The notes: generated from the letters alone by a model not told the origin. 60,740 nt of DNA from Minisyncoccota bacterium (GCA_041663185.1 JBAZQY010000003.1:1-60740), one strand, 5' to 3'; counted from the first letter of the stretch, positions 8,539-58,683 are shown. Made by a program: numbers and translations.

Positions 8539-8568
8539 AAATTTATTAAAAATAGGTTGTGGAATATT

Positions 8569-8618
8569 AATTTTATGAGTCGTGTCGGAGCCCTTTAGGG
8601 TAAAGCGCGAATAAAATT
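8569..8618. repeat. Hairpin element, core family A (copy 1, degenerate arms)
   Basis: Core cgtgtcggagccctttagggtaaagcg at 8581-8607, one mismatch to the cores at 9633 and 29305. Confidence 0.85.
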
Positions 8619-8647
8619 GATATGCCACAACCTATTTCATTCACTAT

Positions 8648-9603: not shown

Positions 9604-9687
9604 AGATCTGCATGATCATTAAAATTTTTATCCGTGTCGGAGCCCTTTAGGGTTAAGCGGGAAAAATTTTAATGATTATGCAGATCT
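9604..9687. repeat. Hairpin element, core family A (copy 2)
   Basis: ~26-bp near-perfect arms (agatctgcatgatcattaaaattttt) around core 9633-9659. Confidence 0.9.
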
Positions 9688-19656: not shown

Positions 19657-19663
19657 ATATTCT

Positions 19664-19690
19664 TCTCCGCTAGGACTTTCCTAGCGGAGA
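19664..19690. repeat. REP-like 27-bp palindrome, copy 1
   Basis: tctccgctagga-ctt-tcctagcggaga. Confidence 0.95.
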
Positions 19691-20289: not shown

Positions 20290-20325
20290 ATTTTTATTAT
20301 ATATTAATTTAATCTAAAATCATTT

Positions 20326-20352
20326 TCTCCGCTAGGACTTTCCTAGCGGAGA
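20326..20352. repeat. REP-like 27-bp palindrome, copy 2
   Basis: Identical to copy 1; abuts the RAYT stop codon. Confidence 0.95.
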
Positions 20353-21009
20353 TTAATTTTTAAAAGATAACCATTCAAATATTTCCTTTTTAAAATATTT
20401 TTCCGTGGAAAAATACTGAGGAAAATTATCTATATTTAAAACTTTGTTCTGAACTCTATTTTCTCCTAAATAATCAGCATAACTAGAATATTTATACTCA
20501 TTTAAAAATTTAAGGGCTTGATTTTTATTTTTAATCCCTTCTTCTTTCCATTTTTTATCTATAAGTTTTATTGGATTAAGATGTATGTAAGAATATAAAT
20601 ATTTTAAATATCTATCATGATCTACATGCTCTGCTTTAAACTTACCCTCAAAAAGACTTCCTGTTCTTTCGTATTTTTTATTAAAATACATTACATAAGC
20701 AGTTAAAAGCTTTTTCATAAACTTACTAATTCCTTCATCTTCTTTTTGTATAATTAAAATATGAAAATGGTTAGGCATTAAACAATATGCTCCTATACTA
20801 ACTAAAAGATTTTTTCTTTTTACATTAAAAAGACCCTCATCTTTCTGTAAATTATCAGATTTAAAATTTTCAATTTGATTACAAGCATACATTAAGCCGA
20901 CAAAACGCTTATAATCTTCTTTATCTTTAAAAATAACTTTTTTATCATTTCCACGATTGTAAAGATGAAAATATTCACCTTGAATAAATTTTATTTTTCG
21001 TAGTGCCAT
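20353..21009 (-). mobile_element. REP-associated tyrosine transposase (RAYT, Y1 HUH family)
   Basis: HLYNRG, AYCLMPNHFHIL (HUH), YFNKKYERTGSLFEGKF, catalytic YIHLNP; flanked by inverted REP copies. Start moved to MALRK (21009). Confidence 0.93.
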
Positions 21010-21030
21010 GTTTATATTATATAACAATAT

Positions 21031-21057
21031 TCTCCGCTAGGAAAGTCCTAGCGGAGA
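21031..21057. repeat. REP-like 27-bp palindrome, copy 3 (opposite orientation)
   Basis: tctccgctagga-aag-tcctagcggaga, the reverse complement of copies 1 and 2. Confidence 0.95.
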
Positions 21058-21068
21058 ATTCATAAATG

Positions 21069-28177: not shown

Positions 28178-28187
28178 CAGAAAAAAG

Positions 28188-28280
28188 CAGGCTATATATA
28201 AAATTTTTTGAGTAGGTGTGGGCGCGCGCCGAGGCGAAGCCGAGGTAGGGATAAGCGAGAAAAATTTTATATATAGCCTG
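28188..28280. repeat. Hairpin element, family A-related (expanded core)
   Basis: Perfect 21-bp arms caggctatatataaaattttt; 51-nt core shares GTGTnGGnGC...TAGGGnTAAGCG with family A. Confidence 0.85.
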
Positions 28281-28343
28281 TTTTTCTATTATTATTAAGA
28301 ATTTTTTATATTATTATGACCTATTTTATGTTAGAATATCTAT

Positions 28344-29270
28344 ATGTACGATTTAATAATATTAGGGGGAGGACCAGCAGGAGCTGCAAGTGCCGTCTAC
28401 TCTGCCCGCAAGCAATTAAAAACAGCAATTATAACGAGCGAGTTTGGGGGACAATCGGTTGTTTCAGAAACAATTTATAATTGGATAGGAACACCAGAGA
28501 TTTCTGGAGCTAATTTAGCAGAAAATTTAAAAAAGCATACTCTCTATTACAAGGGGCCATTTTTGGATATTATTGAGGGTGAAAAAATAGTGGAAATTAC
28601 TAAAAATGATAATGGATTTTCTACAAAATCTGAATCAGGAAAAATATATGAGAGTAAAGCAATTTTGATTACGACAGGTAGTGGTCGTCGTAAATTAGAA
28701 GCCACCAATGCAGATACTTTTGAGCACAAAGGTATCACCTACTGTGCTTCGTGTGATGGACCAATGTTTGCCGATCAAGATGTGCTAGTGATTGGTGGAG
28801 GCAATGCCGCTTTTGAAACATCTATGCAATTAGTTGCTTATTGTAAAAGTGTAACTCTGATACACAGGAGTGAAGAATTTAGAGCCGATCAGATAACCGT
28901 AAAAAAAATTTTAGAAAATCCTAAATTCAAGACGATTACTAATGCTGAAATATTAAGAGTTGACGGCGAACAATTTGTTAGTTCACTTACATATAAAGAT
29001 AAAATTTCAGGCGGAGAAAAAACAATTCCTGCAACTGGGATATTTGTCGAAATTGGACAAACGCCTAATACAGATTTTGTAAAAAATATAGTTGAATTAG
29101 ATAAAATTGGAAAAATTGTCGTTGATCCAATGACCCAAATGTCATCAGTCCCCGGAATCTGGGCCGCTGGTGACTGTACAAACGGTAGATACCACCAAAA
29201 CAACATCGCCGCCGGCGACGCCGTCAAAGCTCTCGAAGACGCCTATATTTGGATACATAAAAATAAATAG
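28344..29270 (+). CDS. trxB: Thioredoxin reductase-like FAD/NAD(P)-dependent oxidoreductase
   Basis: GGGPAG, CASCDG, GGGNAA, GIWAAGD. Confidence 0.88.
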   Translation: MYDLIILGGGPAGAASAVYSARKQLKTAIITSEFGGQSVVSETIYNWIGTPEISGANLAENLKKHTLYYKGPFLDIIEGEKIVEITKNDNGFSTKSESGKIYESKAILITTGSGRRKLEATNADTFEHKGITYCASCDGPMFADQDVLVIGGGNAAFETSMQLVAYCKSVTLIHRSEEFRADQITVKKILENPKFKTITNAEILRVDGEQFVSSLTYKDKISGGEKTIPATGIFVEIGQTPNTDFVKNIVELDKIGKIVVDPMTQMSSVPGIWAAGDCTNGRYHQNNIAAGDAVKALEDAYIWIHKNK

Positions 29271-29287
29271 CGGTTGCCAAAAAATAA

Positions 29288-29347
29288 ACACTAAAATTAT
29301 TTTTCGTGTCGGAGCCCTTTAGGGTTAAGCGAAAATAATTTTAGTGT
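29288..29347. repeat. Hairpin element, core family A (copy 3)
   Basis: Arms acactaaaattatttt around core 29305-29331, which is identical to 9633-9659. Confidence 0.9.
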
Positions 29348-29377
29348 ATATTTTTTAGCTAAAATTATTCTTATTTT

Positions 29378-35303: not shown

Positions 35304-35467
35304 ACAAGAAAATTCGAACTCTTTGACATATGGTTATTAATGAAATTGATTTGTTTATTTTGAAAGCGATCAATCCCCTACTTCTTTCCGTTGGCTTTTA
35401 AAATAAACAAATCAATTCATAAAAAATAATAACTTAAAAAACAAAATAGGCCTGGAGGGCCTCGAAA

Positions 35468-44915: not shown

Positions 44916-47696
44916 TTAAACTTCAAACTTTTTATTAATATATCCTTTCTTTACCTCAATGGATCCAGAGGTATGGACCAGAGAATAACTCTCATCAGCA
45001 TTTTTATTTTCAATTTTAATATAGTAAGTTCCATTAGGAATCAAACAATAATATTTTCCGGTTTTGTCGGCAACTTTATGGGTAATTTCATTCTGACTCC
45101 CCGAAAAGAAAACCCGCAACACTGCAAACGACAATGGATTCGCTGAAATCTTTTCTTTAATACTTCCATATGTTCTTGGCTTTAATATTGTATTTTTCAA
45201 TATATACATTAATCCATAAAGAGCCAGAATTACAATATTATAAGTAATTGGTGAAGTAATAACCGCAATAATTGTTACAATAAAACCTGAATAAAAAATT
45301 ATATTTGAAATTCTTGATAACCAAAGCTGTTTTTTGGAAAAGAAATTCATCAACTTTTTTTCTTTTTTCTCAAATTCATTCCAATCAAACTTGATCGGAT
45401 CCATTGGAATGTTTTTAGTAATCACTTCGTCTTTTCTAACTTCAATAACATCATTAAAATACAAATTCTGATAAAGTTCATCTTCTGTCTGTCCTTTTAA
45501 TTTATTTGATGGAAATTTATAATTTGTCTTACTAGCAATCATTTTGTATTTACCGGGTGGAACAAGAAAACCGTAACGCCCATCGAGATCTGTAATAGAA
45601 GTTGCTATTTCTTTACCATCTAAATTCTGTAACACAATATATGCTGGATCTAATGGTTGTTTGGTCACAGAGTCATAAACTGTCCCCCAAGGATTTTGAA
45701 GTTTTTTCATTCCGAAAAAGGCTAAAAGCATACTCCAAAGTCGCATTGGGATAAAATATATTTCTTTAAATGAAATTGGATTAACAAAAAGAATTTTTGA
45801 AAAACTAGAAAAAGCTCCTATCAATAAAGCCGTAAAAGCAAAGGCCATTACTATAAAATTATTACGGGGTTCTGGAACAACTTCTACAGGAGCAATAACA
45901 CAATAACCATTCTGGTTTAATTCCATTCCTTCAGGAATTATTTCTTGGATATCATTTATATTTGGACAAACATCAATCGGTGGATTAATCACCACAATAT
46001 TTACACAATCACCTTGATCATTTAATTCCATTCCATCGGGAATTGTTTCTTGAAGATCATCTATATTTTTACAAAGATCAACTGGCACGGTGGTTAAAAT
46101 TATTTTGACACAATTACCATTATTATCTATTTTCATTCCATTTGGAATTATTGTTTGCTCTCCATTTATATTTGGACAAACATCAATCGGTGGATTAATC
46201 ACCACAATATTTACACAATCACCTTGATCATTTAATTCCATTCCATCGGGGATAGCAATTTGCGCTCCATTTATATTTCTACATAAATCCGGATCAGTTC
46301 TTATAACTGTTATAATATTCCCTGTATTAGATGGGCATCTATCTGTAGTTAATGTTTGGTCTGCCCCATAACCAGTACCAGCACTATTAGTTGCATAGGC
46401 ACGGTAGTGATATGTTGTATCACAAGTTAATTCAGAAATTCCAGTATTAAAAGATTCAGCTCCAAAAGAACCAGTTGCTGTAGTGGTTGTACCATAACTA
46501 TCGGTTAAGCCATATTGGAAACCGACAGTTGTTGCATTTTCCCCACCAGTACTTGAAATTGTTCCATTTAGAGTGGCAGTGGTTCTTTCAATTGATGTCG
46601 CCGAAAGAGTAGTTACTGATGGAACAGTAATTGGACTGGCTATTAAAAATGTTTGATCGGCTCCATAACTTGTAGCCGTGCTATTTGTCGCATAAGCTCG
46701 ATAATGATACGTCGTGTCTAGAGACAAAGAAGAAAGATCCGACGAATATGATTCAACACCTAAAGTTCCTACTGGTATTGTGCCTCCAGTATAAGTAATG
46801 TCTGTTCCATATTGAAAACCAGCAACAGGATTTTCTCCTCCAGTGTCAAGAATATTACCATTTAATCTAATGACTGCATCTCCTGGGGCGGCCATCGCTA
46901 CTTGAATAATATTCATAAATGTTTTTCTTATGGGTCCTTGTGCTATCGGTGCTACTATCAACACAGCTGGATCAGTTTCTACGACAGGTGGATTACAAGA
47001 TAAGGTATCAAAAGATACATTTCCACCATCAGCTCCACCATAAGCATGATAAGTATAAGTAGTACTACAACTTAGATTATTCATCGTTAGAGAAAATGCT
47101 CCAACTCCATACGGTTGGCCGTCAGTTTCTGTAGAAGTATATGATAAGATTCCCCCATTTGGATTAGTCCCAGAAATTACAAATCCTCTTTGGGAAATAG
47201 GAGCTCCAACAGAGTCAATTGATCCATTTAAAGTTGCTGAGTTTAAACCAATTCCTGTTGCAGCGTTGGTTGTCACAACAGTTGGAGACGGACAAGCTGT
47301 TGTAGTAAACGTCATATCTTCTCCATACCCAAAAAGTCCGGCCTCATTTTTAGCATAAGCTCGATAATGATACAGAGTTCCACAAGTTCCCAGAAGCCCA
47401 CCTATACTTTCTGAGTATACTCCAGTTGGTAAACCAAAAGGATCATCGCCAATAAAAATTAAATCACTAATTTCATAGGCTATAGTTTCTCCGTATTCAA
47501 AATATCTTAGAACAATAGGACTATCGCCACTATTTGTAATATTCCCAGTTAAGGTAACTGAATCATTTGTAATATCTGAAGACCCAACAGTAATAACCGT
47601 CGGAGGAGTAGCTGCTGAAATTAATGTAAAAACCAAGAAGACAGATATTCCTGTAAAAAAACACAAAAAGATAGTCAGTTTTTTCTTATTTGACAT
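44916..47696 (-). CDS. Large surface/membrane protein: FN3-like repeats, DxCxNI Cys-repeats, carboxypeptidase-regulatory-like domain
   Basis: Four ATLNG...YHYRAYA...GYG repeats; five D(L/V)CxNIxxxQxxIPxGM...GxCV repeats; TM helices; GTVYDSVTKQPL...TDLDGRYGF. Confidence 0.75.
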   Translation of the reverse strand: MSNKKKLTIFLCFFTGISVFLVFTLISAATPPTVITVGSSDITNDSVTLTGNITNSGDSPIVLRYFEYGETIAYEISDLIFIGDDPFGLPTGVYSESIGGLLGTCGTLYHYRAYAKNEAGLFGYGEDMTFTTTACPSPTVVTTNAATGIGLNSATLNGSIDSVGAPISQRGFVISGTNPNGGILSYTSTETDGQPYGVGAFSLTMNNLSCSTTYTYHAYGGADGGNVSFDTLSCNPPVVETDPAVLIVAPIAQGPIRKTFMNIIQVAMAAPGDAVIRLNGNILDTGGENPVAGFQYGTDITYTGGTIPVGTLGVESYSSDLSSLSLDTTYHYRAYATNSTATSYGADQTFLIASPITVPSVTTLSATSIERTTATLNGTISSTGGENATTVGFQYGLTDSYGTTTTATGSFGAESFNTGISELTCDTTYHYRAYATNSAGTGYGADQTLTTDRCPSNTGNIITVIRTDPDLCRNINGAQIAIPDGMELNDQGDCVNIVVINPPIDVCPNINGEQTIIPNGMKIDNNGNCVKIILTTVPVDLCKNIDDLQETIPDGMELNDQGDCVNIVVINPPIDVCPNINDIQEIIPEGMELNQNGYCVIAPVEVVPEPRNNFIVMAFAFTALLIGAFSSFSKILFVNPISFKEIYFIPMRLWSMLLAFFGMKKLQNPWGTVYDSVTKQPLDPAYIVLQNLDGKEIATSITDLDGRYGFLVPPGKYKMIASKTNYKFPSNKLKGQTEDELYQNLYFNDVIEVRKDEVITKNIPMDPIKFDWNEFEKKEKKLMNFFSKKQLWLSRISNIIFYSGFIVTIIAVITSPITYNIVILALYGLMYILKNTILKPRTYGSIKEKISANPLSFAVLRVFFSGSQNEITHKVADKTGKYYCLIPNGTYYIKIENKNADESYSLVHTSGSIEVKKGYINKKFEV

Positions 47697-49084: not shown

Positions 49085-49666
49085 TTAATTATACAAACTC
49101 ATAGCCTTTTCTTTGCTTTCAGTAACTATGATTTCTAGGGCTTCGGCAACTTTTTTAGAAACTTTTTTTAATTCTTTTAATTCAGCTTCTTTATATTGGC
49201 CTAGTAAGAATTTTAGTATCGCTTGCTCCCCTTTTGGTTTCTTAATTTTACCCGATGGTGTTACGGGTGATATGCCTATACGGATACGGACAAACTCACG
49301 TGATTTAATTTTTTTAATTATTGACTCGAGTCCATTATGCCCTCCAGAAGAACGATTAAAAGAAATTTTAAAGCTACCGATTGGTAAATCTATATCATCA
49401 TATATGACAATAACATTTTGTGACTTTATTTTATGTTTTGTTTGAGCAAAAGAAACTGCCACCCCAGAATTATTCATAAATGTTTGCGGTTTAAAATATT
49501 CAACTTCTTTTTTACCGATAGTATCTTTATAATAACACGCTTTTGTTCCAGAAGATTGTTTCCATTCAACTTTTCCTAAAATATTATCAAGCACAATAAA
49601 TCCTGTATTATGCCGACTTGTTTTATATTCTTCTCCTGGATTTCCTAATCCTACAATTAATATCAT
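49085..49666 (-). CDS. pth: Peptidyl-tRNA hydrolase
   Basis: IVGLGNPG, RHNTGF, PQTFMNNSG, YDDIDL, GGHNGL, RIRIGI; start moved to 49666. Confidence 0.97.
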   Translation of the reverse strand: MILIVGLGNPGEEYKTSRHNTGFIVLDNILGKVEWKQSSGTKACYYKDTIGKKEVEYFKPQTFMNNSGVAVSFAQTKHKIKSQNVIVIYDDIDLPIGSFKISFNRSSGGHNGLESIIKKIKSREFVRIRIGISPVTPSGKIKKPKGEQAILKFLLGQYKEAELKELKKVSKKVAEALEIIVTESKEKAMSLYN

Positions 49667-49687
49667 AAATCTATAATAACACAAGAA

Positions 49688-49806
49688 GGGTTAAGTCTGA
49701 AATAGTCTTATCAGAGGGGCTTGTGAGCGCGACGGCGCGAACACTGATAAAATTTCTAGTAAGAAATTTTAGTACCCGATGAGAAGAGCTATTTCAGATT
49801 TAACCC
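49688..49806 (-). repeat. Hairpin element, family B (copy 1)
   Basis: Arms gggttaagtctgaaatag / ctatttcagatttaaccc; core homologous in reverse complement to 57292-57415. Confidence 0.9.
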
Positions 49807-49905
49807 AAAATATTTTTTGAGCAAGATTTGTTTCGGAATTATTCTATATAGAACACACTAAGCTCTATTCTGTCAATACTATTTGTGTGATAAAATAAAG
49901 TTTAT

Positions 49906-50508
49906 ATGGAAAATAATAACAATCAAGGAAATATTAACAATTCAGAAAAACTAACGTCGAAGAAGTGGTTTCAGAATATTTGGGATTTAATTAAATACGC
50001 TATCATCGCTCTTATTATCGTCATCCCTATTAGAACTTTTATTGTTCAGCCATTTGTAGTTAGTGGTGATTCAATGGTCCCAACTTTCCACGATGGTGAA
50101 TATCTTATTGTTGATGAATTATCATACCTAATTGGTAATCCAGAACGAGGCGAAGTTATAATTTTCCGTTATCCTAATGACACAAAAAGATTTTTTATTA
50201 AAAGAATCATCGGTCTTCCAAATGAGGAAATAAAAATACAAGGTGATCAAATCACAGTTATTAATAAAGAAAATCCGAAAGGATTTCAATTAACAGAACC
50301 ATATATTAGTGAGAAGTTTGATACAACCATTTCTCTCAAAACTGGAGATAATGAATACTTTGTACTCGGAGATAATCGAAATAGAAGTTCTGATTCTCGT
50401 GTATGGGGAGTATTACCTGGTAAATTAATAATTGGCAGAGCTTATCTACGACTCCTCCCATTTAAGGAAGCTTCATATTTGCCCGGATATTATCAAGAAA
50501 ATAAATAA
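49906..50508 (+). CDS. lepB: Signal peptidase I
   Basis: VSGDSMVPT, FIKRIIGLP, GDNRNRSSDSR. Confidence 0.97.
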   Translation: MENNNNQGNINNSEKLTSKKWFQNIWDLIKYAIIALIIVIPIRTFIVQPFVVSGDSMVPTFHDGEYLIVDELSYLIGNPERGEVIIFRYPNDTKRFFIKRIIGLPNEEIKIQGDQITVINKENPKGFQLTEPYISEKFDTTISLKTGDNEYFVLGDNRNRSSDSRVWGVLPGKLIIGRAYLRLLPFKEASYLPGYYQENK

Positions 50509-50513
50509 TAAAT

Positions 50514-51806
50514 ATGGAAAAGAAAAAAACAAATAAAAATCCCCTGTCTTCAGTGAAAGGAATGCGAGACATTATAGATAGCCAGTACTATCAATATCAG
50601 GGATTTTTTGAAAAAGCTCAAGAGGTTGCAGTCTATTATGGGTTTAAACCGATTGAAACTCCAATGGTGGAATACGAAGATGTTTTCACTTCTTCAATTG
50701 GAATAGGAACTGATATTATCGATAAAGAAATGTATACCTTAAAAACAAAAGGTGGAGATCATTTAGCTCTTCGCCCTGAACACACAGCTGGTTTAATGCG
50801 CAGTTATATTGAACATGGGATGCAAGCTCTTCCTCAGCCAGTGATGTTTTATAGTTACGGTCCATCATTCCGTCACGACAATCCCCAGAAAGGACGTTAC
50901 CGACAATTTTATCAATTCGATATGGATGTTATCGGTAGTGAAAAAAGTATCTTAGACGCACTAGTCATTAAAACTGCTTGGACAATTCTAAAAGAAGCTG
51001 GTGCAGAAAATCTTTCAGTTGATATCAATTCAATTGGAGATAAAGAATGTCGAGCTTCATATATTAGAGAATTGGTTGCTTTTTACAAAAAAAATATCAA
51101 TGTCTTACCAGGAATAGATAGAGAAAGATTAAAAACAAATCCTCTTCGAATCCTTGATTCAAAAGAAGAAAAAACTATTGAATTAAATCAAAGTGCACCT
51201 GAAGCTCTTTCACATCTTTGTCCTTCGTGTAAAAAACATTTCAAAGAGGTTTTAGAATACTTGGAACAAATGGAAATACCTTATAATCTAAATAAATGTT
51301 TAGTTCGTGGTTTGTCTTATTACACCAGGACGGTTATTGAAATAATTCAAGAAGATAAAGAGACTGGCAAAAATATTACAATTGCCGGTGGTGGACGTTA
51401 TGATTATTTAGGAAAACAGCTTGGTAGCAAAAAAGATGTCCCAGCTATTGGAATTTCTATTGGAGTTGATCGGGTTGTTGAATCACCTTGGTTTGCAAAG
51501 TTATCTCCACGCATCATTAAAAAACCAAAAATCTATTTCATCCAACTTGGTTTTGACGCTAAATTAAAATCATTAAATGTAATCGAGATATTACGAAAAG
51601 GAAAAGTGCCTATTGCTCAATCAATCTCTAAAGATAATCTAGGTGCTCAACTTGCTATTGCTGAGAAGCTTGGTATGGAATACGCAATTATTTTTGGACA
51701 AAAAGAAGCCCTCGAAAATTCGGCTATTGTTCGTGATATGAGTAATCGTTCTCAAGAAACAATTAAACTTCCAAAGTTGTTAGAATATATAAAAAATCTA
51801 AAATAA
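50514..51806 (+). CDS. hisS: Histidine--tRNA ligase
   Basis: KGMRD, LRPEHTA, FRHDNPQKGRYRQFYQ, VRGLSYYT, GGGRYD. Confidence 0.98.
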   Translation: MEKKKTNKNPLSSVKGMRDIIDSQYYQYQGFFEKAQEVAVYYGFKPIETPMVEYEDVFTSSIGIGTDIIDKEMYTLKTKGGDHLALRPEHTAGLMRSYIEHGMQALPQPVMFYSYGPSFRHDNPQKGRYRQFYQFDMDVIGSEKSILDALVIKTAWTILKEAGAENLSVDINSIGDKECRASYIRELVAFYKKNINVLPGIDRERLKTNPLRILDSKEEKTIELNQSAPEALSHLCPSCKKHFKEVLEYLEQMEIPYNLNKCLVRGLSYYTRTVIEIIQEDKETGKNITIAGGGRYDYLGKQLGSKKDVPAIGISIGVDRVVESPWFAKLSPRIIKKPKIYFIQLGFDAKLKSLNVIEILRKGKVPIAQSISKDNLGAQLAIAEKLGMEYAIIFGQKEALENSAIVRDMSNRSQETIKLPKLLEYIKNLK

Positions 51807-51813
51807 AAATAAT

Positions 51814-52350
51814 ATGGTAGTTATCGTTCAAAATGGGGATAAGACCTTACGTAAAATCTCAAAAGAGGTTCCTATTCTAGATATCAAAAAACCAAAAATA
51901 CAACAAATCATTAAAGACATGAGCGATGCTCTGGATTCGCAATATGACGGAGTAGCTATTGCCGCTCCACAGATTGGAGTTTCGTTGCGAATCTTTGTTG
52001 TTTCTGGAAAAATATTTGATGAAAATTTTGTCAGAGGTGAAAAACCTAATGGAAAAAATAGTTATGATAAAAAACAGTGGCCTAATTTAGTTTTCATAAA
52101 TCCAGTTTTTAAAAAAATTTCAAAAGATAGAAAATTAATGACTGAGGGTTGTCTTTCTGTTAGGCCATTATATGGAAAAGTTCGCCGTGCGACCAGAGCA
52201 ACTATCGAAGCATATGATGAACATGGGAAGAAATTTGTTCAAGAAGGAGCTGGATTACTTGCTCATATTTTTCAACATGAGACAGATCACCTAGATGGCA
52301 TACTTTTTATCGATAAAGCAAAAAATCTTCAAGAAGTTTTTAATGAATAA
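51814..52350 (+). CDS. def: Peptide deformylase
   Basis: GVAIAAPQIG, EGCLS, QHETDHLDG. Confidence 0.98.
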   Translation: MVVIVQNGDKTLRKISKEVPILDIKKPKIQQIIKDMSDALDSQYDGVAIAAPQIGVSLRIFVVSGKIFDENFVRGEKPNGKNSYDKKQWPNLVFINPVFKKISKDRKLMTEGCLSVRPLYGKVRRATRATIEAYDEHGKKFVQEGAGLLAHIFQHETDHLDGILFIDKAKNLQEVFNE

Positions 52351-53227
52351 AATGAATGAAAAATTAAAATTTATTTTCTTTGGAACACCCCAAATAGCTA
52401 GCCAAACACTTGATATTCTAACTAGTTGTGGATATATACCTTCAATAATAGTAACTTCACCAGATAAACCCGCTGGGCGTGGTTTACATTTAACTCCTAG
52501 CCCAGTTTCCATTTGGGCCGAAAAACACAATATTCCTTGTTTGAAACCCGAAAAAATAACCCCTGAGTTTATAGAAAAATTAAAATCACCACCAGTCGGA
52601 CTGGTGGCCAGCCACCAGTCCGACTGGTGGCTGGATCTTTTTGTGGTTGTCGCTTACGGGAAAATCTTGCCTGAATCACTTATTAAAACTCCTAAATTAG
52701 GCACAATTAATATTCATTATTCTCTATTACCTAGATGGAGGGGCGCTTCTCCGCTTGAGGCAACATTATTAAATGGAGATACTGTAACCGGAGTAAGTAT
52801 TCAACAAATGGCTTTCAAATTAGATAGTGGACCAATTCTCGCCAAAGAAGAAATTCCGATTGAATTAAACGAAACCAAGGAAGAACTAAAAAACAAATTA
52901 ATAAAATTGGGAGGAGATTTACTTTGTAAAATAATTCCAGAAATTCTTGAAAATAAAATTACTCCAGAGGATCAAGATGAAACAAAAGTAACTTATTGCA
53001 TAAAAATAAAGAAAGAAGATGGCCAGATAGACCCGAGTGGTGATCCTATCCTAAACTGGAATAAATACCGAGCATTTTATGGTTGGCCGGGTATTTTTTT
53101 CTTCAAAAACGAAAAGCGAATTAAAATTACTAAAGCTAAATATGAAAATGATTCATTCATTATCGAAAGAGTGATCCCTGAAGGAAAGAAAGAGATTAAT
53201 TATAGTGAATTATTAAAACAAAATTAA
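52343..53227 (+). CDS. fmt: Methionyl-tRNA formyltransferase, with an in-frame palindromic insert
   Basis: FFGTP, DKPAGRG, VVAYG, NIHYSLLPRWRGASP, LDSGPI. Confidence 0.96.
   Translation: MNKMNEKLKFIFFGTPQIASQTLDILTSCGYIPSIIVTSPDKPAGRGLHLTPSPVSIWAEKHNIPCLKPEKITPEFIEKLKSPPVGLVASHQSDWWLDLFVVVAYGKILPESLIKTPKLGTINIHYSLLPRWRGASPLEATLLNGDTVTGVSIQQMAFKLDSGPILAKEEIPIELNETKEELKNKLIKLGGDLLCKIIPEILENKITPEDQDETKVTYCIKIKKEDGQIDPSGDPILNWNKYRAFYGWPGIFFFKNEKRIKITKAKYENDSFIIERVIPEGKKEINYSELLKQN
52589..52634. repeat. Inverted REP-like doublet inside fmt
   Basis: ccaccagtc-g-gactggtgg followed by ccagccaccagtc-c-gactggtggctgg. Confidence 0.9.
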
Positions 53228-53613
53228 TATTTTGAAGTGAATGGATTTCTGTCTGAAATTCCTTTTAACATTTTCTTTACACTCTTTGCTCCCCTTTTAA
53301 AGAGAGTTTGTTTGCGATCTTTATTACTTGCTATCTGGCGTACTATTTCTTTTTTTGCATCATCGATTGCTATATATAAATCTTCTTTTTCGGTGACCGT
53401 GTAAAATTTAGCCCCTCCGATTTCTATATTAAATTCAGCTCTAAAAACATCGCCTTGTTTATGATGATTTGTTGTTTTCCCAACTTCAATATAAGCAATC
53501 ACTTTTTCTCCACTTTTTACAAATTTCTCAATTCCCGATAAACGTTTATTCACGTAATCACTAATTGCTCTTGTTAACTCCATATTCGTGGCTTTTATAT
53601 TTGTGTTTATCAT
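53224..53613 (-). CDS. hpf: Ribosome hibernation factor HPF/RaiA
   Basis: NIKATNMELT, FRAEFNI, EDLYIAID. Confidence 0.9.
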   Translation of the reverse strand: MINTNIKATNMELTRAISDYVNKRLSGIEKFVKSGEKVIAYIEVGKTTNHHKQGDVFRAEFNIEIGGAKFYTVTEKEDLYIAIDDAKKEIVRQIASNKDRKQTLFKRGAKSVKKMLKGISDRNPFTSKY

Positions 53614-53646
53614 GGTTTATTTTAAGCTAAATTAATAATACTTCCA

Positions 53647-53883
53647 TTATACCAAATTTTCGGGTAAATTAATCGACAAAATTTTGCTTGGACTCTGGTG
53701 ACCATTTATTATTCTAACCTGTTTGACAGAAACACCCAATAACAAGGCCATAATCTCGCAAACCCTTTTATTAGCCATATTTCTTTCAGCTTTTTCTTTA
53801 ACTGAAATAATATAGCTATCTTTGCTTTTCTTTTTTATTTCTTCTTTTTTTGCTCCAGCTTGAACTTTAACTTTGATATACAT
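53647..53883 (-). CDS. DUF167/YggU family protein
   Basis: IKVKVQAGAK, VKEKAERNMAN, IINGHQSPSK. Confidence 0.88.
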   Translation of the reverse strand: MYIKVKVQAGAKKEEIKKKSKDSYIISVKEKAERNMANKRVCEIMALLLGVSVKQVRIINGHQSPSKILSINLPENLV

Positions 53884-53927
53884 AATTATATCTAGATTAT
53901 AACAAAATAATGGTTTATACTATAACC

Positions 53928-54797
53928 ATGGGTAAGATAACAAAGTTTGCAAAAATTTCACTTTCAATATTATATATCGTTGTAATTTTTTTATTAATAT
54001 TTAAAAATGAAAAAATTACACTTTTTTATGATCTTCCCAAATGGCTTATTCCCAGCATATTTTTTATCAGTATTATTTATATTTGTTATAAATATATAAT
54101 TTATATTATTAAAGAGAATAAAACTGAGACAGAAATGATCTCTATCATCAATCACACTTTCCGTACTCCATTGACTGGTATTATTTGGCACACCAAGGAG
54201 TTAGAAAAAAATCTTCCACAAAACGAAAAGCTTTTATATCTGCAAAACATTAATAATTCCGCCAATAAGGTTCTAAATATCCTCGATATTTTAATTGGGA
54301 TAAAAGACATCAAAGATACTTCGAGTTATTTCTTTGAGGCTGTTTCGATTAGAGAAATTATCGAGAAATCAATAAAAAAATATCGAGAAAATATAAACAA
54401 AAAAAATATTACTTTCCAATTTTCTCTTTCTAAAGAAATTCCCTTACTAACTGTTGATCTAAAAAAGATTTCTTTCGTTATTGATACAATTATAGAAAAC
54501 GCAATTTCTTATACAAAAAAAGACGGCAAGATTTTAGTCGATTGCATATCGACTCCTTCTAAACTTACACTTTATATAAGTGATACTGGTATAGGATTAG
54601 GAATGATCGACAAGATGAGAATATTTTCTAAATTTTATCGAAATCATCAAGCCAAGCTTATGAATACTGATGGTATGGGATTGAAATTATATCTAGGAAG
54701 ACAAATCATCAAAAGACATCATGGTAAAATATATGCTAAATCAAATGGCCTCAACGAAGGAACAACCCTCTTTGTTGAATTACCTTTTCAAAAATAA
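53928..54797 (+). CDS. Membrane-bound sensor histidine kinase
   Basis: Two TM helices, H-box NHTFRTPLT, N-box ENAISYT, DTGIG, GMGL; start moved to 53928 (TATACT 6 nt upstream). Confidence 0.9.
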   Translation: MGKITKFAKISLSILYIVVIFLLIFKNEKITLFYDLPKWLIPSIFFISIIYICYKYIIYIIKENKTETEMISIINHTFRTPLTGIIWHTKELEKNLPQNEKLLYLQNINNSANKVLNILDILIGIKDIKDTSSYFFEAVSIREIIEKSIKKYRENINKKNITFQFSLSKEIPLLTVDLKKISFVIDTIIENAISYTKKDGKILVDCISTPSKLTLYISDTGIGLGMIDKMRIFSKFYRNHQAKLMNTDGMGLKLYLGRQIIKRHHGKIYAKSNGLNEGTTLFVELPFQK

Positions 54798-54798
54798 A

Positions 54799-55203
54799 TT
54801 ATTTATTTAAATTTTTGAGAATTTCTTTAATTTCTTTTATGTCCTTTTCTAGGGCCACAATCGCTGTTCTTTCTTTGTGAATTTCTTCTCGTTCTTTATG
54901 AATTTCTTCTTCGGTTTTTTCGTCAATTCTTTTTTCTTTATTTAATCCAGAAATAATGATATTTTCTCCAATAAAAAATGAGACAAATAATCCAGTCAGC
55001 ACAGTAATAGCTAACCCAAAAATCAATGAGCCCCAACTAGATACTCCCCAATCATCGGAAATATGCCAAATCCCTCTCCAAATAGAAACAATTCCAACAC
55101 TTCCAATAAAAGCATAGACAATCGGATGGTGAACTAATTTAATTCTGGCTTTGTCTTCTATACTATCTAAAACTTTATGAATTGCATTAAGTATTTTTCT
55201 CAT
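54799..55203 (-). CDS. Hypothetical membrane protein
   Basis: Two TM helices plus C-terminal coiled coil. Confidence 0.7.
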   Translation of the reverse strand: MRKILNAIHKVLDSIEDKARIKLVHHPIVYAFIGSVGIVSIWRGIWHISDDWGVSSWGSLIFGLAITVLTGLFVSFFIGENIIISGLNKEKRIDEKTEEEIHKEREEIHKERTAIVALEKDIKEIKEILKNLNK

Positions 55204-55218
55204 ACAACCTTAAGTATA

Positions 55219-56724
55219 TCATTTCAAAATTATAATTCCAATTATTCCTACAATAAAAAGACACGTTAGGCAAGGAATTATTACTCCTTTCAATATTTTT
55301 CTCTCAGCATTTTTTTCACCAATCACCGCCTCGGCTGTTAAAATGTCAGCCAAGGCAATCATATTTCCAATTCCTGCTCCAACAACCAAAAGAGCTAAAA
55401 TAATACTTTGATTAAATCCAACACTCAACGCCGTTGTGTTAAACAAAGTTCCAAACATTACATTCGAAGCGGTAACACTACCAGTGAGTAATGCCCCAAA
55501 GGCTCCAGCAAAAGGAGCAAAAAATGGTAGGAAAGTCGACTCAATAGCCTTAGCAATAATATTAATAGCTGATGGTAATCCTGATAAATTATTTCCTGAA
55601 TTTTTCATAATTTCAACCATCGCCAACATAGAAGCAATAACAAAAAATGGGATAATAGCGCCTCGAAAAGCTGATTTGATTGACCGAAAAACAATTTCTT
55701 TTTTACTTTGCCAAAAACCAACTACAACCAGTGTTACAAATATAAAAATAATTCCTGGATTAAATAAATTAAATGTATGTTTAAATCCAATCCCGATAGG
55801 AAAACCAATTTTCCCAATAAGAATTTTCCCAAAAATCAAACAGGCGACTAATATAATATAAGGGAGAAAAGATTTAAACGCTGACATCGTTTTAACATCT
55901 TCTTGATTTTCAGTAATCATCAATTTATTTTTGGGAACAAAAATACCAAGTTTTATAGACAATATAATAACAATCATTCCCGCGAGAGATCCCAAAATAG
56001 AAGGAAATTCTTGACCAAATAACTTTAAAAATAGTAAGGAAAAACCAACAAAAAGGACTCCCGACCAAATGGCAAATGGCAAAGCTTCAATAAATTCTTT
56101 CTTTCTATTCGGCCTACCAGCAGTTATAATCCAAAGCATAAATACTGGGACAATCATTCCAACAATATTAAATAGTGCTGCGTATTGTGGGACAGAAGAA
56201 ACATTCAAGGTTGAAAAACCAACCTTAATTGGTGTTCCAGCCGCACCAAAAATTCCAGGGATACTATTCCCGAGTAATCCGACAACCAAAGCTCGGATAG
56301 GTGGCAAACCAAGACCAATCAAAAGTGGAACTGCGATAGCGGCTGGTGTTCCAAAACCAGCTGTTCCCTCTAAAAAACATTCAAAAAACCAGGCAATTAG
56401 AATAACTTGAATTCTGTAATCTTTAGAAATTCCGGATAAATAATGAGAAATATTTTTTATTATTTTTAAATCTTTTAATATTTCAAGAAAAAATATCGCT
56501 CCAAAAATAATAAGCAAAATATCGACAGCCACAAAAACACCTTTGCCAAAAGATGCATACAAAAAAGTCCCTATGATTTGCCAATAAAAAATCGCCAGGA
56601 GAGTGTAAAGAAAAAGTGTTAAAAGTGAAGCTTTTAGTAAGGTAGTTTTCCTAACAAATAGCAAAAAAAGAAAAACCAGAAATGGTAAGATCGACAACAA
56701 AATTGGCAGATTCTCAATATTCAT
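55219..56724 (-). CDS. lctP: L-lactate permease
   Basis: FLEGTAGFGTP, FGAAGTPI, LTGSVTASNVMF, GAGIGNMI. Confidence 0.88.
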   Translation of the reverse strand: MNIENLPILLSILPFLVFLFLLFVRKTTLLKASLLTLFLYTLLAIFYWQIIGTFLYASFGKGVFVAVDILLIIFGAIFFLEILKDLKIIKNISHYLSGISKDYRIQVILIAWFFECFLEGTAGFGTPAAIAVPLLIGLGLPPIRALVVGLLGNSIPGIFGAAGTPIKVGFSTLNVSSVPQYAALFNIVGMIVPVFMLWIITAGRPNRKKEFIEALPFAIWSGVLFVGFSLLFLKLFGQEFPSILGSLAGMIVIILSIKLGIFVPKNKLMITENQEDVKTMSAFKSFLPYIILVACLIFGKILIGKIGFPIGIGFKHTFNLFNPGIIFIFVTLVVVGFWQSKKEIVFRSIKSAFRGAIIPFFVIASMLAMVEIMKNSGNNLSGLPSAINIIAKAIESTFLPFFAPFAGAFGALLTGSVTASNVMFGTLFNTTALSVGFNQSIILALLVVGAGIGNMIALADILTAEAVIGEKNAERKILKGVIIPCLTCLFIVGIIGIIILK

Positions 56725-56728
56725 TATT

Positions 56729-57271
56729 TTAATGATTTTTCAGCCAGGTAATCATCTTTTTAAATGTCCCGGGCCCAGCTTCCCCATCGACAGTTAAACC
56801 TTCTGCTTTTTGGAAATTTTTGACTGCCGTCGCAGTACTTACTCCATAATCGTTATCTATTTTATTTGAAGTATTATTATAAATATTTAAAAACTTCTGA
56901 ACCGTTCCCACATTTGGACCCTGTGATTTATTCTTCAAATACACATTGGCACTTACCATTTTCTCGAGAGCGCTGATCAGATCTTGATTTTTGGAAACTG
57001 TTGTATTTGTCGAAGTCGGAACCAGAGGAGTATTTGTTTTAGTTTCGGTAACTGTTTCTTCTGGCTGCGTTTCAGTTTCAAGAAGAGCTACTTGCCTTTT
57101 TAGAGAGGCTAACTCTTTTTCAAGATCTTTGTTCTTTTCAACTAATTCTTTTTGTTTCTGATTATCGACATGAGAACTTCCTGATTCTATAGTTGAAAAA
57201 GCCCAGTATCCAGCTAAAGCAAACAATACAATAACAATAATTAAAGATAAAATATATTTAAAATTTTCCAT
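56729..57271 (-). CDS. Membrane-anchored peptidoglycan-binding domain protein
   Basis: N-terminal TM, coiled coil, PGBD (VGTVQKFL...DNDYG..TATAVKNFQ...VDGEAGPGT). Confidence 0.85.
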   Translation of the reverse strand: MENFKYILSLIIVIVLFALAGYWAFSTIESGSSHVDNQKQKELVEKNKDLEKELASLKRQVALLETETQPEETVTETKTNTPLVPTSTNTTVSKNQDLISALEKMVSANVYLKNKSQGPNVGTVQKFLNIYNNTSNKIDNDYGVSTATAVKNFQKAEGLTVDGEAGPGTFKKMITWLKNH

Positions 57272-57291
57272 ATTGTAATTATATCACAAGA

Positions 57292-57415
57292 AAATAAAAA
57301 ATTCTAAATAGCTCTTCACGTAAGGTACAGTAAATTTCTTGGTAGAAATTTACTCAGTTTTCCCGCCGTCGCGGTCAAAAGCCCCTCTGATAAGACTATT
57401 TAGAATTTTTTATTT
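57292..57415 (+). repeat. Hairpin element, family B (copy 2)
   Basis: Perfect 20-bp arms aaataaaaaattctaaatag; core shared with 49688-49806. Confidence 0.9.
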
Positions 57416-57423
57416 AATAAAAT

Positions 57424-58683
57424 TTAATTTACAAATGTCAAAGCTACACCCACTTGGTTAGCTCGACCAGTTCGGCCGATACGGTGGACATAGTCCTCGT
57501 ATGTCGCAGGTACATCAAAATTAATAACATGCGAAACGTTTGGTATATCAAGACCACGAGCTGCGACGTCTGTCGCGACAAGAATTTGACTGTGGTTTTC
57601 TTTAAAGGCCTTAAGAGCATTTTGTCTTTTTGATTGATTTTTATCGCCATGAATTGACTCAGCCTTGAAGCCCTTTTGAATTAAAGTCTGACAAAGTTTC
57701 TCAACTCCATGTTTGGTGCGACCAAAAATAAGAACCTTGGAAAATTCTTTTTTTATTAGTAAACATTCTAGTGATTCGATTTTATCTTCTCCGGGGCGCA
57801 CTCGAATAATGTCTTGCTCAACATTACGAGCTGTCTCCCCTGTTTTGACTGAAATTTTTTCCGGATTGTTTAAAAATTCTTTTATTAATTTATCGATTTC
57901 AGTCGTAATAGTCGCTGAAAATAATAGTGTCTGACGATTTGGAGCCATTCCCGACATAATAAATCTCATATCATTTACAAAACCCATATCGAGCATTCGA
58001 TCAGCCTCATCAAGAACGATGGTTTTAAACTCATTCAAGCGTATAACCTTACGATCAACTAAGTCGCGAAGGCGTCCTGGTGTCCCAATCACAAAATTAT
58101 GATTGCGTCGTAAACTAGAAATTTGATTTGAGATACCCATACCGCCAACGCAACAAACAGAAAAAATTCTAAGTGCCCCCCTGAAGTCTTGCAACTCTTG
58201 ATTGATCTGCATTGCTAACTCTCTAGTTGGAACAATGACTAAAACTTTTTCATTTAGATTATTCAAAATTTTATCAAGAAGTGGAAGCAAGAAGGCCGCG
58301 GTTTTCCCGGTACCAGTGTTGGCAATACCAACAACATCACGCCCTAGAAGTATATGAGGAATTACAATATCTTGAATAGGTGTCGGATTAACATAACCCT
58401 TTTTTGAAATATTTTCTTTAATGACATTATTAATTTTAAATTCACTAAACTGATGTATCGGAATATATGGAGCTGATTCAATAATCGGATCAGCCTTACA
58501 AATAAAACGAGAATGGTGAATGGATTGACCTCCACCATAACGAGACGCACTAGCAAATCGCCCTCGAGAATTTCCTCTACGAGAATTATTTTTTTGACCA
58601 CTAAAACGAGATCCGCCTAGACTCTTGTGTGTTGAGACTGATCGACCAAAGCTAGAGCTTCGGTTATTATTTTTTTTATACAT
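57424..58683 (-). CDS. DEAD-box RNA helicase
   Basis: Q motif PTPIQ, ANTGTGKT, PTRELA, LDEAD, SAT, HRIGRTGR; RS/G-rich N-terminus. Confidence 0.97.
   Translation of the reverse strand: MYKKNNNRSSSFGRSVSTHKSLGGSRFSGQKNNSRRGNSRGRFASASRYGGGQSIHHSRFICKADPIIESAPYIPIHQFSEFKINNVIKENISKKGYVNPTPIQDIVIPHILLGRDVVGIANTGTGKTAAFLLPLLDKILNNLNEKVLVIVPTRELAMQINQELQDFRGALRIFSVCCVGGMGISNQISSLRRNHNFVIGTPGRLRDLVDRKVIRLNEFKTIVLDEADRMLDMGFVNDMRFIMSGMAPNRQTLLFSATITTEIDKLIKEFLNNPEKISVKTGETARNVEQDIIRVRPGEDKIESLECLLIKKEFSKVLIFGRTKHGVEKLCQTLIQKGFKAESIHGDKNQSKRQNALKAFKENHSQILVATDVAARGLDIPNVSHVINFDVPATYEDYVHRIGRTGRANQVGVALTFVN

What the first reader, a model, noticed from the sequence alone, without database searches (positions are those of the whole stretch)
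49688..57415. Second conserved-core/variable-arm element (family B), both copies parked just upstream of extended -10 promoters
Seen: the reverse complement of 49688-49806 aligns over ~95 nt with 57292-57415 (aaatagctctt...ggtac..aaatttctt..tagaaattt..tcagt.ttc.cgccgtcgcg.tca.aagcccctctgataagactattt), but the outer arms are unrelated (gggttaagtctg vs aaataaaaaattct). Both contain an internal aaatttct/agaaattt hairpin, giving a multibranch fold. Both start 1-2 nt from the CTTGTG of a TGnTAT(A/T)AT promoter (pth; PG-binding gene), occupying the -35 region, but in opposite orientations relative to those promoters. Inference: same architecture as family A, with possible target preference for promoter-upstream DNA and a possible insulating or regulatory effect.
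Basis: partly seen in the sequence, partly recalled or inferred. Interest (0 to 1): 0.75.

Follow-up and report, generated by a model that had tools for sequence, protein, structure and literature searches.

The report
T-shaped palindromic repeat family in Paceibacteria
The two stretches are copies of a previously uncatalogued ~95-base hairpin repeat, closed by a different stem in each copy, that is scattered between genes of ultra-small Paceibacteria; it behaves like a small mobile palindromic repeat (ERIC/MITE type), and sits next to promoters only because the gaps between genes are tiny.

Summary
Window 49688-49806 (consensus on the - strand) and 57292-57415 (+) share a 96-nt core, about 84% identical, closed by unrelated self-complementary arms.

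I found 21 more copies, all in Paceibacteria/Nomurabacteria (CPR) contigs. Together they define a three-way junction: a long stem P1 plus two small hairpins. 95.6% of cells are paired, 14 pairs show compensatory changes, and 0 of 500 shuffles reach this.

No Rfam family matches, and nothing matches in phage or viral collections.

The element is gained and lost:
- The pth-lepB site is empty in three relatives.
- A sister element, "B2", is present in one relative and absent from the window.

It can also persist at orthologous sites, where it accumulates compensated substitutions and, in one case, a flipped core. Paralogous copies can share arms, so the arms are the weakly constrained outer part of the element, not target DNA.

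Across copies the distance to the next ATG runs from about 0 to 519 nt. Copies abut stop codons as often as promoters. The CTTGTG adjacency holds only for the two window copies and one orthologue. Promoter targeting is therefore not supported.

Best reading: a new ERIC/bcr1/MITE-like palindromic repeat family. Its host-level role (transcript-boundary hairpin) is inferred, not shown.

The parts
49688..49806 (-). Family-B copy 1, whole element (arms plus core). The consensus orientation AAATAGCTCTT..AAGACTATTT reads on the - strand. It lies between the divergent genes pth (49085-49666, -) and lepB (49906-50508, +).
   Evidence: (CM 106.9 bits)
49795..49806 (-). Copy 1, 5' outer arm (GGGTTAAATCTG on the - strand). 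It pairs with 49688-49699.
49688..49699 (-). Copy 1, 3' outer arm (CAGACTTAACCC on the - strand). It gives one A.C on this strand, which is G.U on the + strand.
49700..49794 (-). Copy 1 conserved core: P1 halves 49775-49794 / 49700-49719, hairpin 1 at 49748-49771, hairpin 2 at 49727-49738.
57292..57415 (+). Family-B copy 2, whole element. The consensus orientation is on the + strand, antisense to both flanking genes: DEAD helicase (57424-58683, -) and PG-binding protein (56729-57271, -).
   Evidence: (CM 95.7 bits)
57292..57305 (+). Copy 2, 5' outer arm AAATAAAAAATTCT. It pairs 14/14 with 57402-57415.
   Evidence: (I13)
57402..57415 (+). Copy 2, 3' outer arm AGAATTTTTTATTT. It ends 8 nt from the helicase stop codon.
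57306..57401 (+). Copy 2 conserved core: P1 halves 57306-57325 / 57382-57401, hairpin 1 at 57329-57354, hairpin 2 at 57363-57374.
49664..49685 (-). Neighbour, not part of the element: the leaderless-type pth promoter and start, CTTGTG-TTATTAT-AGATTT-ATG.
57269..57290 (-). Neighbour, not part of the element: the leaderless-type promoter and start of the PG-binding gene, CTTGTG-ATATAAT-TACAAT-ATG.

Best explanation
Family B is an interspersed palindromic repeat of the ERIC/bcr1/MITE kind, specific to Paceibacteria/Nomurabacteria (Patescibacteria). Each copy is a non-coding DNA module of about 120 bp. Either strand of it folds into a T-shaped three-way junction. This has a long stem (a conserved 20-bp inner P1 plus a 3-17-bp outer extension private to each lineage, the 'arms') that carries two small hairpins and three short conserved single-stranded joints (GGGUAC / UCAG / AAG).

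Shown here:
- It is multi-copy and intergenic.
- It is inserted or lost as a unit that includes its arms.
- It can stay at one orthologous site for long periods, where its stems change by compensated substitutions and its core can flip between its own inverted repeats.
- Larger variants carry further hairpin modules nested in its loops.

Inferred:
- The arms differ because they only have to pair, so they diverge freely between old lineages, while the core is held by a sequence-specific partner.
- When transcribed as part of a neighbouring message, the element forms a very stable stem-loop at the boundary between two transcription units. It could then act as a 3'-end barrier or stabiliser, or as a weak terminator or insulator, as described for ERIC and similar repeats.
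- Its closeness to extended -10 promoters is a by-product of very short spacers in front of leaderless genes, not targeting.
For: Family and fold:
- 23 copies come from 19 CPR loci; every real hit of the genome and metagenome scans is Paceibacteria/Nomurabacteria-like.
- On the consensus structure 95.6% of cells are paired, 14 of 34 pairs change on both sides, and 0/500 shuffles reach this; slid controls give 37-54% paired.
- RNAalifold finds the same three helices on its own.

Gain and loss:
- The pth-lepB spacer is 100-124 nt with no element in L056, L059 and L060/L062, which have 78-83% Pth identity. It is 239 nt with the element in the window.
- Sister element B2, with its own arms, is present in L036 and absent from the window at the same place.
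- Assemblies break inside copy 2.

Arms belong to the element:
- They are absent from empty sites.
- L039a and L039b, L013, L026/L038 and L022b sit at unrelated loci yet share arm sequence.

Long residence with constraint:
- L028 and L037 are orthologous sites (flanking protein 78% identical). They have the same arms, an inverted core, and 9 differences, 8 of which fall in four compensated pairs.
- Window copy 2 and L036 differ by three compensated pairs.

Mobile-repeat habit of the sister families:
- Family C is an in-frame 25-residue insert in a methyltransferase linker. In orthologues that linker holds different inserts or none.
- The modules in the DGR spacer of L010 are absent from related DGRs.

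Orientation and comparators:
- Both orientations relative to genes occur, about 10 to 5 independent sites.
- The comparison with ERIC, bcr1 and RPE follows the review PMC3184786.
Against: - No target-site duplication is evident at window copy 1. Only one weak candidate exists (ATTAAA around B2 in L036, AT-rich sequence).
- No transposase or autonomous element with matching ends was found in the 510 kb held. The RAYT-like gene in the window is flanked by a different hairpin.
- The unpaired core bases are invariant between orthologous copies whose flanking genes are far more diverged. That points to a host-level, sequence-specific function and fits a dedicated RNA or protein-binding site at least as well as a selfish repeat.
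- Non-Watson-Crick pairs are strand-biased (A.C 29 versus G.U 9 on the consensus strand), as expected if the opposite strand is a functional RNA.
- Copy 1 lies between divergent genes, where a transcript-end role makes little sense.
- No U-tract terminator signature is found at either copy.
- Nothing here shows transcription.
Confidence: 0.55

Rival explanations
1. It is a dedicated structured RNA motif (a cis-acting or small RNA) read mainly from the strand opposite to the consensus orientation (AAAUAGUCUUAUCAGAGGGGCUU...). The conserved joints of the three-way junction bind a conserved protein or form a catalytic or tertiary core. The arms are simply a clamp. Dispersal is secondary.
For: - Covariation is strong.
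- Unpaired bases are invariant across genera and between orthologous copies.
- The reverse strand folds more stably in 20 of 23 copies and carries twice as many G.U pairs.
- On the consensus strand A.C outnumbers G.U by 29 to 9.
- Variants with extra domains exist, as in many RNA families.
- Families A and B occupy the same orthologous spacer in different genomes, as functionally equivalent RNA classes sometimes do.
Against: - Both orientations relative to the flanking genes occur, roughly 10:5. The core is flipped between orthologous sites without loss of conservation.
- Very few wobble pairs are present (2.8% of cells), and long stems are perfect, which is more typical of DNA palindromes.
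- No Rfam family, ribozyme classes included, matches on either strand, even at E up to 10.
- A sister family sits in frame inside a protein-coding gene.
- The strand bias could be mutational.
Confidence: 0.22
2. The arms are pre-existing intrinsic-terminator hairpins of the host genes. Only the core is mobile, inserting into or being exchanged at the apex of such hairpins, so the element is a decorated terminator.
For: - The window has many plain long perfect hairpins with 2-4-nt loops flanked by A and T runs between genes (5741, 12022, 44873, 49044).
- Several copies have A-run/T-run arms (L013, L043, window copy 2).
- Further modules are nested in the loops of hairpins 1 and 2 in the long variants. 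One is 97% identical between two MAGs whose scaffolds differ more.
- At the copy-1 site the window and L057 share arm-like flanks but have different cores.
- The core is flipped within constant arms in L028/L037.
Against: - Empty orthologous sites show no hairpin corresponding to the arms of copy 1.
- The B2 insertion in L036 and the in-frame family-C insertion both bring their arms with them.
- Paralogous copies share arms.
- Many arms lack any T-run, and copy 1 lies between divergent genes.
- The terminator scan calls neither copy.
Confidence: 0.1
3. One reading: the element targets DNA just upstream of extended -10 promoters and acts as a promoter insulator or regulator.
For: - Both window copies and L036 end 1-2 nt from CTTGTG.
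- Seven of 23 copies end within 25 nt of a start codon.
- The arm of copy 1 supplies a -35-like TTCAGA 17 nt upstream of the pth -10.
Against: - Distances to the next ATG range from about 0 to 519 nt, and copies are equally close to upstream stop codons.
- Some copies lie between convergent genes or in a DGR spacer.
- Promoter-like matches in the region are at shuffle level, 41 versus 39.4.
- Extended -10 promoters do not need a -35.
- L036 is an orthologue of copy 2, not an independent case.
Confidence: 0.06
4. It is an RNA component of, or is retro-mobilised by, diversity-generating retroelements (DGRs). A long variant lies between the template repeat and the reverse transcriptase gene in L010.
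For: L010 carries avd, TR, a GC hairpin, the long family-B variant and then the RT.
Against: - DGRs with RTs 89% and 75% identical (L064, L066-L068), and L065 and L069, have no such element between TR and RT. The covariance model finds none there.
- No RT lies near any other copy.
- The second long variant (L037) is not next to an RT.
Confidence: 0.03

Closest known systems
ERIC (enterobacterial repetitive intergenic consensus, ~127 bp) and bcr1 of the Bacillus cereus group (~155 bp)
   Same: Imperfect palindromes of 100-160 bp between genes, found in either orientation. They are conserved across genera and present or absent at orthologous sites. Variants carry internal insertions. For bcr1, compensatory changes keep a cruciform-like RNA fold. 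They are reported to be co-transcribed and to affect mRNA stability (review PMC3184786; the detail on internal insertions in ERIC is from my own knowledge of Wilson and Sharp 2006, which I did not read here).
   Different: There is no sequence similarity and the phylum is different. Family B has a defined T-shaped three-way junction with two small hairpins whose loops are conserved. Its outer stems are lineage-private. No TA or 5-bp direct repeats are evident at its ends. Transcription is untested.
MITEs such as Correia/CREE, RUP and Nezha
   Same: Small, non-coding and multi-copy, with terminal inverted repeats, insertion polymorphism, a hairpin RNA when transcribed, and effects on neighbouring genes.
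   Different: No convincing target-site duplication and no parent IS or transposase with matching ends were found. Conservation at orthologous sites is far above neutral. Copy number appears low (2 per 60 kb; 4 per 333-kb contig).
REP/BIME elements with RAYT (REP-associated tyrosine transposase)
   Same: Extragenic palindromes. A RAYT-like HUH gene flanked by its own REP-like hairpins is present in this very window (20353-21027).
   Different: REPs are 20-40-nt simple hairpins that flank their RAYT. Family B is about 120 nt and branched. It is unrelated in sequence to the hairpins flanking the RAYT-like gene, and it is not adjacent to that gene.
Rickettsia palindromic elements (RPE)
   Same: Palindromic repeats that can be tolerated in frame inside protein-coding genes. 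Sister family C does this in the window's RlmI-like methyltransferase.
   Different: No family-B copy was seen inside a gene. There is no sequence relation and the host lineage differs.
T-shaped inverted terminal repeats of parvoviruses (AAV ITR), as a structural analogy only
   Same: A long stem carrying two small internal palindromes, about 125 nt, with 'flip' and 'flop' orientations of the interior relative to the flanks (L028 versus L037).
   Different: Family B is internal to a bacterial chromosome and not at a DNA end. There is no Rep protein, no terminal resolution site and no replication role in evidence. The flip is more simply explained by recombination between the element's own inverted repeats.

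Membership tests
MITE (miniature inverted-repeat transposable element) | Small non-coding unit with terminal inverted repeats | tested here: met
   119-124 bp. The inner P1 of 20 bp plus the arms form the inverted termini.
MITE (miniature inverted-repeat transposable element) | Several dispersed copies per genome | tested here: met
   2 copies in the 60.7-kb window. 4 copies on contig JAPLXS010000006.1. 2 each in L022 and L039.
MITE (miniature inverted-repeat transposable element) | Presence/absence at orthologous sites | tested here: met
   The pth-lepB site is empty in L056, L059 and L060/L062. B2 is present in L036 and absent from the window.
MITE (miniature inverted-repeat transposable element) | Target-site duplication flanking the insert | tested here: inconclusive
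   None is evident at window copy 1, which inserts in a T run. ATTAAA brackets B2 in L036, but the sequence is AT-rich.
MITE (miniature inverted-repeat transposable element) | Parent IS or transposase with the same ends | tested here: inconclusive
   None was found in the 510 kb held. Whole genomes could not be scanned.
REP / RAYT system | 20-40-nt simple imperfect palindrome | tested here: not met
   The core is a 95-nt three-way junction.
REP / RAYT system | Copies flank a RAYT gene and match its cognate hairpin | tested here: not met
   The RAYT-like genes (window 20353-21027; L062 8029-8748) are flanked by unrelated GC hairpins.
ERIC/bcr1-type transcribed palindromic repeats (works-like comparison) | 100-160-bp intergenic imperfect palindrome in either orientation, with compensated stems | tested here: met
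ERIC/bcr1-type transcribed palindromic repeats (works-like comparison) | Co-transcription with neighbouring genes and an effect on mRNA fate | not testable with these tools
   No transcript data were available.
Intrinsic (rho-independent) terminator | GC-rich stem followed directly by a U run, at the 3' end of a gene | tested here: not met
   The scan calls neither copy. Copy 1 lies between divergent genes. Many arms lack T runs.
Any Rfam 15 family, including self-cleaving ribozymes (hammerhead, twister, twister-sister, pistol, hatchet) | Match to the family covariance model | tested here: not met
   There was no relevant match at gathering scores or at E up to 10, on both strands, for degenerate, consensus and long copies.
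DGR non-coding RNA (TR-spacer) | Conserved position between TR and RT in related DGRs | tested here: not met
   It is absent from L064, L065, L066-L068 and L069.

The most novel reading that the evidence does not exclude
Families A, B, B2, C and the nested modules together may form an undescribed system in Patescibacteria. In it, modular hairpin cassettes are moved as folded single strands into intergenic DNA, hairpin loops and protein linkers, perhaps by the RAYT-like HUH enzymes of these genomes. They are then kept by the host because the T-shaped core is read by a conserved factor, as RNA or as extruded DNA. That would make it a structured, sequence-specific punctuation mark between leaderless transcription units rather than junk.
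Probability: 0.2. Interest if true: 0.7.

Novelty: new member of a known kind. Interest (0 to 1): 0.45.

Why it matters
Patescibacteria (CPR) genomes are usually described as streamlined and poor in repeats. In this case a 60-kb stretch carries about ten structured palindromic elements of several families:
- Family B is conserved across genera and has clear covariation.
- Another family is tolerated inside an enzyme.
- Others are nested in each other's loops.

Four consequences follow:
- These elements break assemblies, so MAG contiguity and gene calls in this large, uncultured group are affected.
- They offer markers for strain typing.
- They provide a tractable case for an old question about ERIC-like repeats: are they selfish DNA or host-useful RNA/DNA structures?
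- They warn against reading promoter adjacency as targeting in genomes with leaderless genes and 100-200-nt spacers.

Tried and rejected
1. Known RNA families. Rfam at gathering scores on the window and four loci, and at E up to 10 on copy 1, a consensus copy, the long variant and the family A/C region, gave only tRNAs and generic hairpin (miRNA-precursor) noise. Inspection by eye for hammerhead, twister or pistol cores found no consistent match.
2. Phage origin. There was no hit in 50,697 phage records and none in viral contigs with two core patterns.
3. Arms as spacer-like guides. Arms have no second match in the 510 kb held. Two long arms have no exact match in viral contigs. This test is weak because it needs exact matches.
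4. DGR link. Rejected, because related DGRs lack the element.
5. Arms as copies of the local target. Rejected for copy 1, because the empty sites lack them.
6. Terminator role. No U-tract signature.
7. Strand assignment by wobble pairs. The result is suggestive (29 versus 9) but not decisive, because strand-biased mutation gives the same pattern.
8. Strain-level polymorphism. Contigs encoding identical Pth or PG-binding proteins are either the same sequence or break inside the element.
9. Literature. Four full-text searches found no description of such repeats in CPR bacteria.

Full report
**What is there.** Window 49688-49806 and 57292-57415 are two copies of one element in opposite orientations.
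- The shared core is 96 alignment columns long with 15 differences, about 84% identity.
- A 23-mer from it occurs nowhere else in the window, and 0 are expected by chance.
- Each copy is closed by its own self-complementary arms, 12 and 14 bp, which are unrelated between copies.
- Both strands of both copies fold 7.7-9.6 standard deviations better than shuffles.
- The flanking genes are pth and lepB, which diverge around copy 1. A DEAD-box helicase and a PG-binding protein are co-directional around copy 2.

**The family.** One exact-pattern scan each of the genome and metagenome collections returned 50 loci.
- The real hits, recognised because the whole 95 nt aligns, all come from Candidatus Nomurabacteria/Paceibacteria-type contigs. 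The rest are chance 16-17-mers in unrelated taxa.
- With secondary copies found by BLAST, this gives 23 copies (alignment A4).
- Most copies read CTCTTCTCAGAGGG at the 5' side, which pairs with CCCTCTGATAAGAG at the 3' side.
- The element is therefore a long stem (P1, 20 bp conserved plus the private arms) bearing two small hairpins. Hairpin 1 is AAUUUCU-UGGU-AGAAAUU. Hairpin 2 is GCGC-CGUC-GCGC, with a 3-bp outer helix.
- Three conserved joints, GGGUAC, UCAG and AAG, link the helices.
- On this structure 95.6% of cells are paired. 14 of 34 pairs change on both sides. No shuffle of 500 reaches the observed values, and partners slid by 1-3 columns give 37-54% paired.
- RNAalifold predicts the same helices independently.
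- The two window copies are degenerate in the inner P1 (CATCGGG, CGTAAGG).
- No Rfam family matches any version on either strand. Nothing similar was found in phage records or viral contigs.

**Where copies sit.** All 23 copies are intergenic.
- The distance from the outer arm to the next start codon runs from about 0 to 519 nt, with seven copies within 25 nt.
- The distance to the preceding stop codon is as often minimal: 5-8 nt in five copies.
- One copy lies between convergent genes, and copy 1 lies between divergent ones.
- Genes in these genomes typically carry TGnTAnnAT, 6 nt, then ATG. This is a leaderless-type arrangement, seen upstream of about ten genes next to elements. Any intergenic insert therefore abuts such a promoter.
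- CTTGTG next to the arm occurs only in the two window copies and in L036, the orthologue of copy 2.
- The consensus promoter scan of the region is at shuffle level, 41 versus 39.4. The terminator scan calls neither copy.
- Promoter targeting is therefore not supported.

**Dynamics.**
1. *Gain and loss at the copy-1 site.* The pth-lepB spacer is 239 nt in the window. It is 100-124 nt with no element in three relatives (L056, L059, L060/L062; Pth 78-83% identical). A fourth relative, L057, has a strongly diverged B-like element with recognisably similar arms. The arms of copy 1 are not present at the empty sites, so they arrived with the element.
2. *Gain and loss of B2.* A covariance model of the family (R1) also detects a sister family, B2. 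It has the same ends and the same hairpin loops but a different inner stem. L036 carries a B2 with its own 11-bp arms between the helicase stop and the orthologue of copy 2. The window lacks it.
3. *Long residence.*
   - L028 and L037 are orthologous spacers (rsmA-uvrD; flanking protein 78% identical).
   - They have the same flanks and arms, but the core is inverted.
   - The two cores differ at 9 positions. Eight of these form four compensated pairs, and no unpaired base differs.
   - Window copy 2 and L036 differ by three compensated pairs.
4. *Shared arms.* Copies at unrelated loci (L039a, L039b, L013, L026/L038, L022b) share arm sequence, for example a right arm CATTTCCTCCCT. Arms are thus heritable parts of the element that diverge between old lineages. 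They are not target DNA.
5. *Turnover between families.* L013 has a family-B copy in the spacer where the window has a family-A hairpin.

**Sister families and modules.** These support the mobile-repeat reading.
- Family C (window 9162-9274) lies inside an intact RlmI-like methyltransferase ORF as a 25-residue in-frame insert. It sits exactly where the solved homologue 2igt has none.
- Orthologues carry the same insert, other inserts or none in that linker.
- The same C core is intergenic, with other arms, in L046.
- Long family-B variants (L010, L037) carry a 27-nt module after GGGUAC and a 95-nt module in place of hairpin 2. The 95-nt module is 97% identical between two MAGs whose B scaffolds differ much more.
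- The L010 variant lies in the TR-RT spacer of a diversity-generating retroelement. DGRs with RTs 70-89% identical lack it, so it is a passenger there and not a DGR component.

**Which strand, RNA or DNA.**
- The strand opposite to the consensus orientation folds more stably in 20 of 23 copies.
- A.C mismatches on the consensus strand, which are G.U on the other strand, outnumber G.U by 15:7 in the core and 14:2 in the arms.
- This fits an RNA read from the reverse strand. In about two thirds of independent sites that strand is also the sense strand of the flanking genes.
- However, the bias can be produced by strand-biased mutation.
- Wobble pairs are rare overall (2.8% of cells).
- Orientation relative to genes is not fixed, roughly 10:5.
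- The flipped core in L037 remains fully conserved.
- I therefore cannot decide between a DNA-level and an RNA-level constraint.
- Some sequence-specific constraint clearly acts on resident copies. The unpaired bases do not change, while neighbouring genes are only 76-83% identical.

**Interpretation.**
- The best-supported reading (confidence 0.55) is a new family of ERIC/bcr1/MITE-like palindromic repeats in Paceibacteria. The review PMC3184786 describes the same combination for those repeats. They are 100-160-bp intergenic palindromes, found in both orientations, with insertion polymorphism. Some keep their fold by compensatory changes, some are co-transcribed and affect mRNA stability, and some families insert in frame.
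- What the element does for the cell is inferred only. The likeliest role is a very stable stem-loop at the boundary of adjacent transcription units.
- Rivals:
  - a dedicated structured RNA on the reverse strand (0.22);
  - a mobile core inserted in resident terminator hairpins (0.10);
  - a DGR-linked RNA (0.03).
- Membership of the MITE class is not established, because no target-site duplication and no parent transposase were found.
- Membership of REP/RAYT is excluded for family B, although a RAYT-like gene with its own REP-like hairpins lies in the same window.

**Verdict.** This is a new member of a known kind and is of moderate interest. It is uncatalogued, lies in a little-studied phylum and is clearly under constraint, but its mechanism of spread and its cellular role remain open.

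Noticed in passing
window 20353-21027 (-), with hairpins at 19663-19690, 20325-20352 and 21030-21058: A RAYT-like HUH/Y1 transposase gene (motif PNHFHIL). It is 42% identical to L062:8029-8748, which weakly matches NF047646 REP-associated tyrosine transposase (33 bits, below the cut-off of 80). It is bracketed by REP-like hairpins TTCTCCGCTAGGACTTTCCTAGCGGAGA; the upstream one has its loop inverted. The L062 homologue is bracketed by a different hairpin (CCAGATAGCGGCAAGGCCGCTATCTGG).
   Followed up: partly
window 8550-8637, 9604-9687, 29259-29376; long-core variant 28183-28285: Family A has the core CGTGTCGGAGCCCTTTAGGGTTAAGCG at the apex of private stems that range from about 20 bp (29259-29376) to 26-27 bp and are nearly perfect. 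At the sites orthologous to 28183-28285 and 29259-29376, L013 carries a family-B copy and a long-core A copy with different arms. There was no Rfam match beyond generic hairpins.
   Followed up: partly
window 9162-9274, inside the ORF 8648-9595 (-): Family C hairpin (22-bp arms, GC-rich centre) is translated in frame as a 25-residue insert in the linker of an RlmI-like SAM methyltransferase. Orthologues have the same insert, unrelated inserts or none. The same core is intergenic in L046:172-248, and a similar one lies in the DGR spacer of L010.
   Followed up: yes
window 49664-49685, 57269-57290 and 28340-28362, plus many related loci: Genes appear leaderless: an extended -10 (TGnTAnnAT), about 6 nt, then ATG, with no Shine-Dalgarno spacing. 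This was seen for pth, the PG-binding gene and about ten genes next to elements in related contigs.
   Followed up: partly
L010 5817-7984 (-), and the related L064-L069: A complete diversity-generating retroelement: bAvd, an AAC-rich template repeat, and an RT with the LGNLTSQ motif. Related loci have Lcl_C (C-type lectin fold) target genes. In L010 the TR-RT spacer has been invaded by two hairpin modules.
   Followed up: yes
L010 4668-4750 and 5787-5869: An 83-nt direct repeat (94% identical) brackets a Bro-N domain gene (4841-5677, -) inserted at the 3' end of the RT gene. It looks like a separate small insertion event.
   Followed up: no
L043:2259-2353, L036:508-602, L028:1064-1158, L027:1193-1287: All four copies of sister family B2 lie 38-57 nt from a family-B copy, in every relative orientation. 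This could be real pairing or ascertainment, because the loci were fetched around B copies.
   Followed up: partly
window 35344-35417: Another hairpin with private 24-bp arms (96% complementary) and a 26-nt centre. It may be a further family.
   Followed up: no
window 281-1087 and 45898-46289: Tandem direct repeats of 126-nt and 105-nt periods, 68-82% identical. They are probably repeated protein modules.
   Followed up: no
L037 5690-5790 and L027 about 5270-5360: 'Family D' hairpin. Its core, GTCCTCGGATTTCCTCGCCGAATTCTTTGGGAAGCTCGGCCAGAC, sits in 21-bp private arms. It is present in L037 but absent from the orthologous spacer of L028.
   Followed up: partly
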